64,000 nucleotides of DNA from Podarcis pityusensis (taxonomy: Eukaryota). Positions 18,001 through 24,000 of this stretch are shown piece after piece. Within the stretch, counting starts at the first letter, position 1; each line of letters starts with the position of its first letter. The stretch lies in NCBI GenBank assembly GCA_964106645.2, contig OZ067039.1. The stretch is one strand, 5' to 3'. The position numbers are program-made.

Positions 18001-21000
18001 GCACTGAAAATCCATTTACTAGATCTAGTCATAATACCCACCTTTGTTTCTTCTTCAAGTTGCCTCTTCAGTTCTTCAACCTGTTGAGTAAAACCTTGCT
18101 TGCCTCTTGAAAGTTGGGAAATCAAAGCATCTTTTTCTTCTACTTGGCGAGCAAATTCACCTGAGAAGAGCAAAAGAGAATAGAGTATTTAATAGGACTG
18201 GAATAAAGTTGACTGAAAAAACTGTACTCAAGAAGAACAGGAACAACTGGGAGTTTAAAAATAATAAAATTAGCTATACAGTCATATCTGAGCTTAAACA
18301 TAATGCCACATAAACCACACACTCCTCAAATACTAATTGAGAAGAGCATACACTTTCACTTTTCTTCCTGCTGTGATATACACAAGTACTCAGATCAGGA
18401 GAGCTTGCACCACAGATGTAGAAGTAAAAAGTTTAGAACTTTACAAAAAGTGGAATGATCTGAATGTAGAAAAGACTGTACATTGGCTGAGAGCACTTGC
18501 TTAGAGACCACGTGCCACTCTTTGACTTTGGAATCACAACCTTGATACATTAATTACGTAATTTAGTGTTGAATAATGCTATTCTTCACATTTTCAATGT
18601 TGTGATCCTTTGATTTTAAAATCAGCTGCAAGTTACATTTCTTACGAGAATTTACAAACAACTTTCACAGTGTATATAATGTGTTACAGTGTGTAACTTG
18701 CAGTATGTAACCAGTCATGTGCCTTACCTGCTTCTGTCTGCAGACGTGCTCTTTGAGCAGTCAGGTCATTAATTGTGCGCTGGTGCTCTTCCTCCTTTGC
18801 TTTAACCTCACTCAGCTGATCTTCCAAGGAGCGGGATAATTTCTCAAGAGCTGACTGAAATGGGCAATTGGAAAAACATTGAAATAGTCTTCAAACTGAT
18901 ATATTAGTAAGAACATTCTTTAAAAAGAAAGCAAAACTATGAAAAAAGACAGATAATTTATAAATTTGTATTTATGCAAATATAAGTTTCATTGCAGCCT
19001 AAGTAAATGACAGCATACATTTAAACCAAATTCTGAAGTTTGGCACAATTTGATATGGAAATTACAAACTTTGCAAAGAGCTAAAATCCAATAGCTGTGC
19101 TGCAATCTATTAATTTGATTGCCTTCCTCAAGTCAGATTCTTATAGGCAATCTTTGAACACAAAGTCTTCAATATATTAACACATACAACATAATTTCAT
19201 GAAATAATGGAGGAATGTGTTTACCTGTATATTCTTTATAGGTGATAAAATATATAAACACCTAATTAATTCATCTAGCAATTACATTGACTACCCAGCA
19301 GTAATTAAATACTGTATTGTACACTTAGGAGCAGAACTTTTACAGTCTAATCATTAAAAATATTGCCCATTTTCATATATAGTGTACTTTAACAAGTAAT
19401 TCTTGGCATCCAGAATATGTTTTTAGTACTGCTTCATTTGCTTATGCTATACAATCTGACTTTGCTTCAACTTTAGCCTAAGGTCAGGTTTAGAGATGTT
19501 CTGGCAGCTTAGCTCTTAGAAAAACATGTGTCAAATGCTTATGAGATGATGCAGTAGTTCTTGCATCCCTTCCCTAATGCACTGAAGTACAATACCTTAG
19601 ATTTAGAGACAGATTCCATATTACTGGCAAGGTCATCAATCTCCATCTTCAGCTCACTCTTCTCCTTTTCCAGCTTCTGTTTCACACGTTGCAGGTTATC
19701 AATTTGTTCCCCAAGTTCAGCTGCACTGTCTGCATGCTTCTTGCGGAGAGCAGCCGATGTGGCTTCATGTTGCAGAGTGGCTTCTTCAAGGTCCCTGCGC
19801 ATTTTCTGGAATTCTGCCTCACGTTTCTTGTTCATCTCAATCTGAGCTGCGGTTGCCCCACCAGCTTCCTCCAGACGCTCACTGATCTCTTCAAGTTCTC
19901 TGGAGAGATCAGCCCGCTGCTTCTCTGCTTTGGCCCGAGATGCACGTTCAGCCTCAATCTCTTCCTCCAGTTCCTCAATACGGGCCTAGAGAAAGAGAAG
20001 CAGCCATTAACAGAGTCTTCCCTGATGAACTGATTTTCATATGATGGAGTCAATATATGCTTGACTTGCCTGTAACTCCTTTATCTTCTTCTGAAGCTGG
20101 GAGCCCAAGGCCTGCTCATCTTCAATTTTGCTTTGTAGCTGGCTGATTTCAAAGTCTTTCCTTTTCATAACAAAACACAAGGTTTTCTCAGTCAAATTGA
20201 AAGAGGGCTGGGTGCCATAAAGAGCTCCCAAAAGGTCTTCTAGACAGTAAACCATACTTACTTCTTAAGCTTTTCATCCAGCTGCTGCTTATCATTCTCC
20301 AAATCCATTGTGGATTCCTGGGCCAGCTTCAGATCACCTTCAAGCTTCCTCTTGGATCTTTCCAGGTCCATGCGAAGTTTCTTTTCTTGCTCCAGGGACC
20401 CTTCAAGCTAAAGAGAAAGAGGGGACAAAGACTTTGTCACTCTAATACTACTTTCACCCCCACAGTTATTCTTCTGCATGTGTTGGTGCTTACATCGTCC
20501 ACTTGCTGCTCCAGCTTGGTCTTTGCTTTGGTCAGAGTATTGACTTTGTCCTCCTCTGCCTGCAGGTCATCCAAGGTCTGTTGATGGGCCTCTTGGAGGG
20601 CTTTCTTTTCTTTGGTCAGTTTGGCAATGTTCTCATCCAAGACTGCCATCTCTTCAGTGAGGTTTTTCACCTTTTAGAAATGAACAAACAGATTCAATAT
20701 ATCATTCTACCCTGGAATGACAATACTGTACCACATTCTGACTATTGGTTGCAGATCTGAGCACATTGTGATCATTACCTTGTTTTCTGTGGCATGCTTC
20801 TCCTTTTCCACCTTGGCCAGTGTTAACTCAAGATCATCAATGTCTTTCTTCAGCTCTGAGCATTCATCTTCCAGTTTCCTCTTTTTGGCTGTCAGCTCAG
20901 CATTCATTTCCTCCTCATCCTCTGCCCGTTCAGTCAGCTCCTTAATTTTAGCTTCCAGCTGAATCTTGGTTTTGATCAGCTGGTCACATCTCTCCTCAGC

Positions 21001-24000
21001 ATCTGCCAAGCCATCAGATTCCTGTAGGTTGAAAACATATTTTTAATGCATCTCTCTCGTCTTGTTGAGTTAAGAAGTAGTTTTTTAGTTGAGACATACA
21101 CCACATAAGCAAAAGTTTGATAAAATTCCTTTACCAGGGATTCGAGGACAATCTGCACATTGATATGCAACTGTTTGAGTGGGAGGGGCCAGGGAGGAAA
21201 CTTGATCTGTCTTACTTTGGGAAGTTTGGCCTTTGCTAACAGAGCAGAAAAGGGGGGCACTGAACAAGGGAAGAAGGTAATAAAGTGTGCAGTGAAGTTT
21301 AGCATAGGGAAGATAGAGAGAAGGCAGCTAGTGGAGACATGAGCAAGGGTTGGAGGCAGGGGAGAAACTAAGCAGTGGGTTGAGGGAGGAAGTGGGCAGA
21401 GACATGTGTGGAAGCAAGAGTTATCAGGCAAAGTAAGGGAATGTGGGATAAAAGTAATGAATAAAAATGAAGAGGTGGAACTGAGGATTTTTCTTCTTCC
21501 CTTTCTATCTTTCCTTGTTCCTGCACTTTATTATGTATTTGATATCTATAATTATCTTTTTAAATAAGTTTTATTAGCTCCAAAATTTCTCGGCACTTTT
21601 TGAATTCTTGTATCCAATCTATATCTGTCAGGCATTGAGTCACTAGGACAAAAACATTTAATGTTACCAGTGATGCTTACAGATTGGACTTGGAGTTGCA
21701 AGTCATTCTTCTCTTGCATCAGAGACACCATTTTTTCTTCCAGCTCCTTCCGTTTGGCCTCTGATTTGGCAAGCTCTTCTTTAGTTTTCTCAAACTCTTC
21801 CTTCATGTTGGCCATCTCCTTCTCTGACTCAGCACTCTTCAGCAGAGGTTTGATCTTGAAGTACAACTTCATCCAAGCCCAAGTCTTCACATTCATGAAT
21901 GAGCGGACATTGTACTGAATAGTGAAGATAGACTCTCTGTAAAGAAAGCATACTAGATCTTAAGGACGATTCCAAAATAAAATTTGTTTTCAAGTTTCTT
22001 TAATCTGTATTAAACCTGCATGTGTTGATGGACTCATTATCAAACTAGACTCATTGCCAGTTTGATAATGAGCGCTGACACCTTCCTTTGTGGGTGCCCT
22101 TTGCAGGGCCGCGCACAGCACCCCAGTCACGTGGGACCCACCAGCTGTTTGGGCTGGCCTGCCTCCCTGTGCTAGTCATTGGAGGTTTCCGCCAAACCTC
22201 AGCCAATCAGCACCACAGGGTGGTGGGGCCAGTTGCTTAAATAGGAGGTGGCTCTGGAGCTTCACCCACCCAACCCTCCCTTTCGTTAACCTGCAAAAAG
22301 CATTAGACAATGTTTTGCCTATGCTGCTACATCTTTGGATGGTTGCTGTTGAAGAGCCGGGAAGGAATTTCCCTGCATTGTCGGTTTTAGGCCTTGGGCG
22401 GAATCCTTTAGTCTATCTTCCCTAAATGGGGTGGGGGGGTGAAGTGGTGACTCACCCCCCCCCCGCAGCGGTGATTCCAGGGTCCCCTCTTAAAGGGGTT
22501 TATATAAGGGAGTCACTGGCCATACACTGAAAGGTTGTCAGTGAACTCCCCTGCATTGCGGGGATATGGGCTGCCAACATACACAAGCATCTTGCTGTGC
22601 ATGTCCCATATCCCATTCACCATGAGGAGTTCCAGTTCCCCCGGCTGGGGGCTGGGAGGGATACATGCCCAATGCCTAAGTCAAGGTCTTCCTACATCTG
22701 AAAGGTTTAATAAAGTTGTGGCCAATTTTTATTCCATAACACATTGTCACAAGTCATTATTCCTTCTGGTGGTCTCTTGGGGCCGGGGAGTCTCCTCCTG
22801 GGCACGCAATGAGTCCTGTTACAGACTATGAAACTCTACCTCCTTTCCATCATTTTCTTGAACTCCACTCTCATCAGGTAACCACGGCAAACAGCTTGGG
22901 TGCGTGTAATCAGCTGTGCCAACTTATCATCTCTCATTTCCTCTAGAGTACCCAAAAGGCCAGCTTTGAAGAAGACCTGGGAAAAGAAAATATTACAAAG
23001 TATTGGTCACTGTCTCAACAAACTCAAATATTACAGTCTTGTAATAAAAAGTAATTTTACCTTTGTGTGGCCAAATTTATATTGGGTATGGTCAACATCG
23101 ATAGAACCGAGAAGCTTCTCAGAAGCTTTCTTGCTATCCATGAACTGTCCCTCTGGGACGGCACTTGCATTCAATATCCTGTATCTGTTGAGAAAAGCTT
23201 ACAGTTTTTATTTTGCCAAAGTATTATGATAGCTGGCACTAACTTCCACAATTGTTTTTGTTACAGAATAATGTCTGAAAGAGATTAAAAACTGAATTTG
23301 GCTGTGAAGTAAAACTTATGTCTAGGGAAACTTTCTTAAACATGATGAACATTTGAAAAGATGTTTCTTAGTAACATGATCTTACTGCAGGTGGCCTTTC
23401 AGCTTATCTAATTATGCTGCTGCAAGCTGATGCAATATAAGAAGTTCCATTGCTGTACAGAGAGGTACACAGCTATTAAGGAAGTACACAGCCTATCCCT
23501 GATATACCTTTTTTTTATTTCATCCCAGTTCTCTCAACCACATTCAATATAAACATACACTAATCATCCATCAGTGAGTTCTTAGTTGATTTTCAGCATT
23601 CTTAAAAGTTTAACATGTACAAAGGCTGAAATCCTAACTACACTTACTTTTACTTTAGTGGGACTTATTTCTTAGTGCTTTGGATTATACTGCATTGTAT
23701 TGAAAACATATTTTTAAAGAACTGAGAAGCATAATAGTAAAATAGTATGGAATATACAGACCTCTGTTTAAAATCACCGTAAATGATCCTGCTAGGGAAT
23801 CCCTTTCTGCAAATTCTGATACCTTCCAGCACTCCATTACATCTCAGTTGATGCAATACAAGTTCATGCTCCATGGCACCTTAGAGAACATTAAAGTATG
23901 GATTAACACTACAGGGTAGAATTTCCTTCTCTTTCGAAGAATGTTTACTAAAATGTCTTACCAGGTGTTTTCGTTTCATTGGGGATGAGACAGCGCACAA

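What the first reader, a model, noticed from the sequence alone, without database searches (positions are those of the whole stretch)
19615..21021. ~1.4-kb gene-conversion tract between B and C covering four introns (S2 rod)
Seen: B 19615-21021 and C 53050-54451 are almost identical, introns included. Intron 25 (101 nt) is identical, intron 26 (84 nt) has 1 difference, intron 24 (86 nt) has 3, and intron 23 has a few substitutions plus a 5-nt indel. Flanking introns 22 and 27 are largely unalignable. Identity ends sharply ~19 nt before the end of exon 27. Established: concerted evolution occurs in clustered MYH genes. Inference: recent, possibly layered conversion. These direct repeats 33.4 kb apart could also seed unequal crossover, giving hybrid genes or copy-number change.
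Basis: partly seen in the sequence, partly recalled or inferred. Interest (0 to 1): 0.7.

Follow-up and report, generated by a model that had tools for sequence, protein, structure and literature searches.

The report
Gene-conversion patch between lizard myosin genes
Two neighbouring fast-muscle myosin heavy-chain genes of a lacertid lizard share a 1.4-kb stretch, introns included, that was copied from one gene to the other long after they duplicated; this is a clean example of a process already known in this gene family.

Summary
B 19615-21021 and C 53050-54451 (minus strand, 33,435 nt apart) differ by 25 substitutions and one 5-nt indel. The four enclosed introns differ at 0/101, 1/84, 3/86 and 5 (+5-nt indel)/108 nt, while the flanking introns cannot be aligned.

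On near-neutral sites, 11/337 differ in the tract against 220/1233 elsewhere (Fisher P 7e-14; 0 of 10,000 permutations). The 3' breakpoint lies inside an exon.

The window is from a lacertid lizard (Podarcis-like), not human. B-type and C-type genes exist separately in Zootoca, Lacerta and Podarcis proteins, so the duplication is much older than the tract. Interlocus gene conversion is the best explanation.

Refinements:
- The tract is one layer of a gene-wide mosaic with at least three divergence levels.
- It coincides with the gene's longest block of exons joined only by short introns.
- It holds an island of four substitutions in 5 nt (codons 1192/1193) that separates every lacertid B-type from every C-type protein scored.
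- "Layering" within the tract is not statistically supported.
- The unequal-crossover idea and an assembly error remain untested.

This is a known kind of event in MYH clusters, so interest is modest.

The parts
19615..21021 (-). Conversion tract, copy B: coding exons 21-25 (all but the last 19 nt of exon 25) with introns 21-24.
   Evidence: 97.4% BLASTN block; 25 substitutions plus one 5-nt indel; exon map.
53050..54451 (-). Conversion tract, copy C: the same exons and introns.
19596..19614 (-). Last 19 nt of B coding exon 25, just outside the tract, with 6 differences from C 53031-53049. The 3' breakpoint lies between 19617 and 19614.
   Evidence: Difference list; changepoint, 0 of 2000 permutations.
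19754..19758 (-). Island of 4 substitutions in 5 nt (C 53189-53193), codons 1192/1193: Ser-Ala in B, Ala-Ser in C.
   Evidence: expected by chance in 10 of 20,000 simulations; fixed between 2 B-type and 11 C-type lacertid proteins.
21022..21680 (-). B intron 20 (659 nt; C counterpart 54452-54889, 438 nt): not alignable, and bounds the tract on its 5' side.
18855..19595 (-). B intron 25 (741 nt; C counterpart 51903-53030, 1128 nt): not alignable, and lies just beyond the 3' edge.
12284..33448 (-). Gene B: 38 coding exons of a fast skeletal myosin heavy chain. It differs at 2 of 1660 compared codons from the Podarcis lilfordi myosin-1B-like X4 reference, P0007.
44264..63797 (-). Gene C, coding exons 5-38 (its 5' end runs off the window). 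Exon lengths and splice sites match B except in exons 5, 15 and 38.
28163..29276 (-). Second young B/C region, coding exons 5-10 (C 62535-63797).
   Evidence: Synonymous differences 8/157; introns 5, 6 and 8 alignable.
22950..23087 (-). Possible mini-tract centred on the 84-nt intron 18 (C 56121-56258): 4 differences in 138 nt between exons that otherwise differ at about 25% of synonymous sites.

Best explanation
The tract is a non-allelic (interlocus) gene-conversion tract between two tandem, same-strand fast skeletal myosin heavy-chain paralogues of a lacertid lizard.

Inferred mechanism. A DNA break in one copy was repaired using the paralogue 33.4 kb away as template, probably by synthesis-dependent strand annealing. 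This overwrote about 1.4 kb, exons and introns alike.

Why here. The tract fills the gene's longest block of exons joined only by short introns (coding exons 21-25, 1426 nt). The long introns on either side share no homology and probably stop heteroduplex extension. That would explain the 5' edge at the exon 21 boundary. The 3' edge stops 19 nt short of the end of the block.

Age. Neutral divergence since the last homogenisation is about 0.025, roughly one-twentieth of the value in the oldest parts of the gene pair.

Not one clean copy. The four amino-acid differences that remain in the tract are all states also seen in orthologues or other paralogues. The 1192/1193 pair is fixed between gene types across the lacertid proteins scored. 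So several shorter events, patchy mismatch repair, or selection against converted alleles at these codons probably shaped the tract.

Shown: the identity pattern, its edges, its significance, the old age of the duplication at protein level, and the fit to intron architecture. Inferred: the repair mechanism, the heterology-barrier idea, and the origin of the islands.
For: 1. The 97.4% block stands against 72.9-95.9% for all other B/C blocks.
2. Introns 21-24 score 0.91-1.00 matches per longer length. The null from 60 non-homologous intron pairs has a maximum of 0.58. Seven other short introns (7, 11, 16, 29, 32, 34, 35) score only 0.53-0.75, so short introns are not conserved as such.
3. Synonymous third-position differences are 11/337 against 220/1233, P 7e-14, with 0 of 10,000 permutations. 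The changepoint lies inside exon 25.
4. Intron divergence (9/374, JC 0.0245) equals four-fold-site divergence (3/117, JC 0.026). The oldest strata give 46/116, JC 0.56.
5. Both flanks are old: exons 15-19 differ at 48/162 and exons 26-28 at 45/127 synonymous sites. The tract is therefore an internal patch, not a single crossover junction.
6. B-type proteins (P. lilfordi P0007, Zootoca P0008) and C-type proteins (P. lilfordi, P. raffonei, P. muralis, Lacerta agilis, Zootoca) keep their diagnostic residues outside the tract. So both genes predate the split of these genera.
7. Residue 1140 is Ser in both Zootoca genes and Ala in the other seven B/C-type sequences compared. That is the within-species sharing expected under concerted evolution.
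8. The tract equals the longest short-intron exon block (1426 nt), and the second young region equals the second longest (1114 nt).
9. Gene conversion in skeletal MYH clusters is in print. The preprint 10.1101/2025.10.28.684953 reports it and cites Moore et al. 1992 (passages read). The stickleback MYH3C preprint also discusses it (passages read).
Against: - No nucleotide sequence of the orthologues in other lizards could be reached, so the decisive test was not run. That test asks whether paralogues group within species for this tract only, at silent sites.
- The cross-species support is at protein level only. Inside the tract it rests on 8 variable residues, and only one of them (1140) shows the concerted pattern.
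- The protein set is thinned by 90% clustering, with only two B-type lacertid proteins.
- No reads are available to exclude an assembly error.
- Across the 15 short introns, intron identity correlates with flanking synonymous divergence (Spearman -0.57, P 0.026). The correlation loses significance without the four tract introns (-0.33, P 0.33).
- There is no clear GC-biased signature. Tract differences are 10 weak-to-strong against 11 strong-to-weak, and GC3 is 0.54 against 0.40-0.61 elsewhere.
- Donor and recipient cannot be told apart.
Confidence: 0.88

Rival explanations
1. Selective constraint rather than conversion. The four introns and the silent sites of exons 21-25 would be conserved since the duplication because they carry function, such as splicing signals, an intronic RNA or a mirtron.
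For: The introns are short (84-108 nt), so a sizeable fraction is splice signal. The S2 protein sequence is highly conserved in all paralogues, with 4 amino-acid differences in 342 codons.
Against: - Seven other short introns of the same gene pair score only 0.53-0.75.
- Four-fold sites and introns show the same low divergence.
- Identity stops inside an exon with 6 differences in 19 nt, mostly silent.
- Rfam gives no family in 19300-21400 on either strand; the only match has E 0.23 and 19.1 bits against a gathering score of 60.
- The four introns fold no better than shuffles (z 0.42, -0.80, 0.57, -0.05).
Confidence: 0.03
2. Assembly artefact. One copy would have been polished or patched with reads from the other, or a collapse was partly resolved, creating false near-identity.
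For: Near-identical paralogous segments 33 kb apart are a classic place for such errors. No reads could be examined.
Against: - The copies differ at 25 substitutions and one indel spread along the tract, with no identical run above 229 nt. A patched segment would be expected to be identical.
- Named P. lilfordi proteins carry the window's residues at all 8 variable tract positions for both gene types, and P. raffonei does so for C. This is protein-level only, and one of these assemblies may be the window's own source.
Confidence: 0.05
3. Reverse history. B and C would be recent duplicates, about 2.5% apart, and the diverged remainder of the genes was imported later from other cluster members. 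Alternatively the patch arose from two unequal crossovers.
For: - Other paralogues ('D', 'E') exist.
- At least one apparent import from D into C is seen in exon 14 of the P. lilfordi/P. raffonei lineage.
- The preprint holds unequal crossing-over to be the main driver of cluster turnover.
Against: - B-type and C-type diagnostic residues outside the tract are shared between Podarcis and Zootoca, and are partly visible in a gecko and a cordylid.
- Every long intron is unalignable. That would need wholesale replacement of nearly the whole gene on both sides of a small patch.
Confidence: 0.04

Closest known systems
Gene conversion within the skeletal myosin heavy-chain multigene family (chicken fast MYH genes, Moore et al. 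1992). Seen only as a reference-list entry; the content is recalled.
   Same: Tandem fast skeletal MYH paralogues are homogenised in patches, giving mosaic genes that confuse orthology.
   Different: This case is in a lacertid lizard. It is resolved to the base, with introns, both breakpoints and an unconverted island. I did not read the 1992 paper, so detailed comparison is not possible.
Homogenisation reported in the vertebrate core skeletal MYH cluster (bioRxiv 10.1101/2025.10.28.684953; passages read).
   Same: The same tandem, same-strand array. The authors report sequence homogenisation through gene conversion, detected with sliding-window p-distance.
   Different: They rate conversion as a lesser and rarer factor than unequal crossing-over. 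Their evidence is in supplementary figures and text that I could not see, so I cannot say whether a lacertid case is included.
Stickleback MYH3C cluster copy-number evolution by NAHR, with small conversion patches (bioRxiv 10.64898/2025.12.22.696110; passages read).
   Same: Tandem MYH copies whose long identical stretches act as recombination substrates. Small deviating regions are ascribed to gene conversion.
   Different: In that study crossovers change copy number and are seen as polymorphism. Here there is only a fixed internal patch in one sequence, and no copy-number evidence.
Conversion with selectively retained sites in other tandem families, for example primate L/M opsins and RHD/RHCE (recalled), and the CEACAM1 paralogue (PMC7042247, abstract seen in the listing).
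   Same: Introns and silent sites are homogenised while a few functionally distinct codons stay different.
   Different: Selection on the Ser-Ala/Ala-Ser pair in S2 is only inferred here from its fixation across lacertid proteins. No function is known for it.

Membership tests
Interlocus (non-allelic) gene-conversion tract | A segment of paralogue identity far above that of both flanks | tested here: met
   97.4% against 72.9-95.9% for the other blocks. Synonymous differences are 11/337 in the tract, against 48/162 upstream (exons 15-19) and 45/127 downstream (exons 26-28).
Interlocus (non-allelic) gene-conversion tract | Homogenisation includes neutral sites (introns, four-fold sites), not only constrained ones | tested here: met
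   Introns 9/374 and four-fold sites 3/117. Other short introns score 0.53-0.75.
Interlocus (non-allelic) gene-conversion tract | Statistically significant breakpoints | tested here: met
   Scan statistic, 0 of 10,000 permutations. 3' changepoint chi-square 96.6, 0 of 2000 permutations. The 5' side is stepped: exon 20 is intermediate at 10/79.
Interlocus (non-allelic) gene-conversion tract | The duplication is older than the tract (both paralogues present in outgroup species) | tested here: met
   Protein level only. B-type and C-type proteins are distinct in Zootoca and Podarcis, and C-type is present in Lacerta.
Interlocus (non-allelic) gene-conversion tract | Paralogues group within species for the tract only (phylogenetic incongruence at silent sites) | tested here: inconclusive
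   No lizard nucleotide collection could be reached. At protein level, 1 of 8 variable tract residues (1140) shows within-species sharing.
Interlocus (non-allelic) gene-conversion tract | Real in the genome (supported by reads) | not testable with these tools
   No reads. Indirect evidence only: 25 differences are spread along the tract.
Class II sarcomeric myosin heavy chain, fast skeletal cluster | Myosin tail coiled coil, tandem same-strand array, and closest relatives named as skeletal MYH | tested here: met
   Pfam Myosin_tail_1, E 2e-23 for exon 25. Best hits are myosin-1B/myosin-4 of lizards at 97-100%. Copies A, B and C are all on the minus strand. B has 38 coding exons.
Mirtron or intronic structured RNA | Stable hairpin filling the intron, or a match to a curated RNA family | tested here: not met
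   z-scores 0.42, -0.80, 0.57 and -0.05. No Rfam match better than E 0.23.

The most novel reading that the evidence does not exclude
The exon 21-25 (S2) block is a recurrent conversion zone across lacertid lizards, and its extent is set by gene architecture. Conversion runs freely through exon-dense blocks with short introns and stops at long introns that share no homology. Selection keeps an isoform-specific Ser-Ala/Ala-Ser dipeptide (codons 1192/1193), and perhaps codons 898 and 991, as unconverted islands. If so, intron length would partition the MYH genes into units that evolve in concert or independently. The S2 dipeptide would mark a functional difference between the two myosins.
Probability: 0.3. 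Interest if true: 0.45.

Novelty: new member of a known kind. Interest (0 to 1): 0.3.

Why it matters
The case documents, base by base, how concerted evolution acts inside a squamate fast-myosin cluster.

- Orthology and phylogenies built from the rod region of these genes will be misleading.
- Dating the duplication from any single region would be wrong by up to about twenty-fold.
- The fit between tract limits and intron architecture suggests a simple rule for where conversion can act in large multi-exon tandem genes.
- The 1.4-kb direct repeats are also potential substrates for unequal crossover, the process held to drive gain and loss in this cluster (passage read). Nothing here shows that it has happened.

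Tried and rejected
- **Mirtron or structured intronic RNA.** Rejected.
- **Layering inside the tract.** The best split is at B 20611, with 13/996 against 12/406 differences (10/996 against 12/406 with the 1192/1193 cluster counted once). It is not significant: 1905 of 5000 permutations, or 769 of 5000 with the cluster counted once.
- **GC-biased conversion signature.** Differences are balanced at 10 against 11. GC3 of the tract (0.54) is above the oldest strata (0.40-0.50) but within the range of the rest, so this is inconclusive.
- **First exon chaining of C.** It failed on a chance match to the 28-nt exon 4 and was redone from exon 5.
- **First rough dS profile from tblastn codon maps.** It lost about 90 codons of the tract and was replaced by exact exon maps.
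- **First literature search.** The terms were too broad and returned 6 papers, none on MYH conversion.
- **Donor and recipient.** Not attempted, because no outgroup nucleotides are available.
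Full report
**What the window is.** The 64,000-nt window has no N. It holds three same-strand (minus) copies of a sarcomeric myosin heavy-chain gene:
- A partial copy A (its 5' exons at about 613-4721).
- A complete copy B (33448-12284).
- A copy C lacking only its first four coding exons (63797-44264).

A single exon of B (window 19596-19985, minus strand) matches Pfam Myosin_tail_1 (E 2e-23). It is 100% identical to a Podarcis lilfordi 'myosin-1B-like isoform X4' protein, 99% to a Zootoca vivipara myosin-4, and 97-98% to many other lizard and snake fast skeletal myosins. 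I therefore take the window for a lacertid lizard, most likely Podarcis. It is not human.

I built no joined spliced model and searched with none. Codon comparisons in scripts were made exon by exon, with split codons left out.

**Gene structure.** I walked the named reference protein P0007 along the minus strand. This gives 38 coding exons for B, with AG acceptors at all 37 introns. Thirty-six of the 37 donors are GT, and the 84-nt intron 24 has a GC donor. B differs from P0007 at 2 of 1660 compared codons. Of the 34 exons of C that lie in the window (5-38), 33 have the same length as in B; the exception is exon 5 (118 against 115 nt). Splice sites also match, except that the loop-2 exon 15 acceptor did not map and the ends of exon 38 differ.

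**The observation.** It holds exactly.
- BLASTN of the window against itself gives B 19592-21026 against C 53027-54456 at 97.4% over 1435 columns. Every other B/C block is 72.9-95.9% identical.
- Inside B 19615-21021 there are 25 substitutions and one 5-nt indel. The longest identical run is 229 nt.
- The four enclosed introns are 108/103 nt (5 substitutions plus the indel), 86/86 (3), 101/101 (0) and 84/84 (1).
- The flanking introns 20 (659/438 nt) and 25 (741/1128 nt) give only 31-38-nt local matches at 74-77% (best E 0.002).
- The last 19 nt of exon 25 carry six differences.

**Is it more than chance or constraint?** I used third positions of codons whose amino acid and first two bases agree.
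- The tract has 11 differences in 337 sites, against 220 in 1233 elsewhere in the gene (Fisher P 7e-14). Four-fold sites give 3/117 against 95/438 (P 8e-8).
- In 10,000 permutations no window of 337 sites had fewer than 22 differences.
- A changepoint scan puts the 3' edge between B 19617 and 19614, inside exon 25 (0 of 2000 permutations as extreme). An edge inside an exon, marked mostly by silent differences, is not what exon-level or intron-level constraint would give.
- Short introns are not conserved as such. Of 15 intron pairs of 140 nt or less, seven (7, 11, 16, 29, 32, 34, 35) score only 0.53-0.75 matches per longer length. The four tract introns score 0.91-1.00.
- The introns are not structured RNAs. 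Fold z-scores are 0.42, -0.80, 0.57 and -0.05, and Rfam gives nothing better than E 0.23.
- Intron divergence (JC 0.0245) equals four-fold-site divergence (JC 0.026). This is the expectation if one regional event reset both.

**The tract in context: a mosaic.** Synonymous third-position differences between B and C fall into at least three levels:

| Level | Exons | Differences |
|---|---|---|
| About 4-5% | 6-10 | 8/157 |
| | 21-25 (whole exons, including the exon 25 tail) | 15/343 |
| About 13-15% | 11-14 | 35/232 |
| | 20 | 10/79 |
| | 29-36 | 58/439 |
| About 30-39% | 15-19 | 48/162 |
| | 26-28 | 45/127 |
| | 37 | 12/31 |

At four-fold sites the oldest level gives JC 0.56. So the tract was last homogenised at roughly one-twentieth of the age of the oldest parts.

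With neutral rates of about 1-2.5e-9 per site per year, this is on the order of 5-12 million years. Those rates are recalled, not from any call, and the figure is only a rough guide.

The other is exons 5-10, B 29276-28163, where introns 5, 6 and 8 are alignable. A possible 138-nt mini-tract surrounds intron 18.

**Why here.** The tract coincides with the longest run of exons in the gene that are separated only by short introns: coding exons 21-25, 1426 nt, of which the tract covers 1407. The second young region is the second longest such run (1114 nt). The long introns on either side share no detectable homology. I infer that conversion spreads through exon-dense blocks and is halted by heterology at long introns. 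This explains the 5' edge at the exon 21 boundary. It is an inference from two regions, not a tested rule.

**Age of the duplication and cross-species evidence (proteins only).** B and C differ at 66 of 1660 compared codons. I scored 28 named squamate proteins at those positions.
- B-type proteins are P. lilfordi P0007 and Zootoca P0008.
- C-type proteins are P. lilfordi P0031, P. raffonei P0033, P. muralis P0032 with six isoform models, Lacerta agilis P0034 and Zootoca P0053.
- Both types keep their states outside the tract, so both genes predate the divergence of these genera.
- A gecko and a cordylid protein are also largely B-like.

Within the tract only 8 residues vary among these orthologues. 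Residue 1140 is Ser in both Zootoca genes and Ala in the other seven B/C-type sequences compared. This is the concerted pattern, but it is a single site.

Residues 898 and 991 flip among species. Zootoca C carries the B state at both, Lacerta C at 898 and P. muralis C at 991. This fits repeated conversion in this block in several lineages.

By contrast 1192/1193 is Ser-Ala in both B-type proteins and Ala-Ser in all 11 C-type proteins. In the DNA this is four substitutions within 5 nt (B 19754-19758), expected by chance in 10 of 20,000 simulations. All four amino-acid differences left in the tract are states also present in orthologues or in the D paralogue. A single complete copy followed by new mutation is therefore unlikely. 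Several shorter events, patchy mismatch repair, or selection against converted alleles at these codons fit better.

The spacing of the remaining differences does not itself demonstrate layers. The best split is at B 20611, with 13/996 against 12/406 differences (10/996 against 12/406 with the cluster counted once). It is reached in 1905 of 5000 permutations, or 769 of 5000 with the cluster counted once.

**Rivals.**
- Constraint is rejected on the grounds above.
- An assembly error cannot be excluded without reads. It is unlikely, because the copies differ at 26 places spread along the tract, and named Podarcis proteins carry the same tract residues.
- A reverse history would make B and C recent duplicates whose other parts were overwritten from other paralogues. 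It conflicts with B/C diagnostic residues being shared across genera outside the tract, and with every long intron being unalignable.
- A single unequal crossover would give one junction, not an internal patch with old sequence on both sides.

**What is known.** Gene conversion among skeletal MYH genes is established. A 2026 preprint on more than 1100 vertebrate myosins states that it observed homogenisation through gene conversion in the core skeletal cluster. It ranks conversion below unequal crossing-over, and it cites Moore et al. 1992 on chicken (passages read). Its supporting material is in supplements that I could not see, so I cannot say whether lacertids are covered. A stickleback study shows NAHR and small conversion patches in the MYH3C cluster (passages read).

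My three searches for conversion in MYH genes did not include lizard or squamate among their terms. The listed titles and abstracts I saw mention no lizard case. That is the only basis for calling this instance undescribed.

**Verdict.** This is a well-resolved new example of a known process, with two points of some interest: the fit between tract limits and intron architecture, and the conserved unconverted dipeptide island. Three things remain unchecked: nucleotide-level comparison with sister species, read-level validation, and any evidence for unequal crossover.

Noticed in passing
B 28163-29276 / C 62535-63797: Second young B/C region over coding exons 5-10. Synonymous differences are 8/157, and introns 5, 6 and 8 are alignable (0.94, 0.81, 0.89 matches per longer length). 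Intron 7 is not (0.62), and intron 9 has a 150-nt length difference. Copy A is much more distant here: 66-88% to B or C, against 88-96% for B to C.
   Followed up: partly
B 22950-23087 / C 56121-56258: The 84-nt intron 18 and the adjoining 27 nt of each flanking exon differ at only 4 of 138 nt. The rest of exons 18 and 19 differs at about 25% of synonymous sites. This is either a very short conversion tract or a constrained intron.
   Followed up: partly
B 24653-24812 (coding exon 14, residues 558, 608, 610, 611): The window's C and the C-type proteins of P. lilfordi and P. raffonei carry D-T-V-G, the state of a third paralogue ('D': P0014, P0115). C-type proteins of P. muralis, Lacerta and Zootoca carry E-S-I-Q, the B state. 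This looks like another, lineage-specific conversion involving a gene outside the window.
   Followed up: partly
   Followed up: no
1478-1603, 11013-11095, 24932-25003, 36431-36508, 41481-41536, 62287-62370; also 49062-49270 / 52711-52924: Dispersed 50-110-nt repeats at 80-93% identity occur in both orientations in introns and between genes, and look like SINEs. A second family has two copies inside introns of C; one of them lengthens C intron 25, next to the tract. They were not classified.
   Followed up: no
B 21681-21936 (coding exon 20): The exon just upstream of the tract is at an intermediate level (10/79 synonymous differences) but has 5 amino-acid differences in 85 codons. Its first 40 nt hold six silent differences. 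The 5' side of the tract is therefore stepped rather than a single jump.
   Followed up: partly
1975-2254, 32158-32423, 44709-44948: A repeat of about 230-280 nt at 81-91% identity lies within the 5' part of copies A and B and just downstream of C, in mixed orientation. It was not examined.
   Followed up: no
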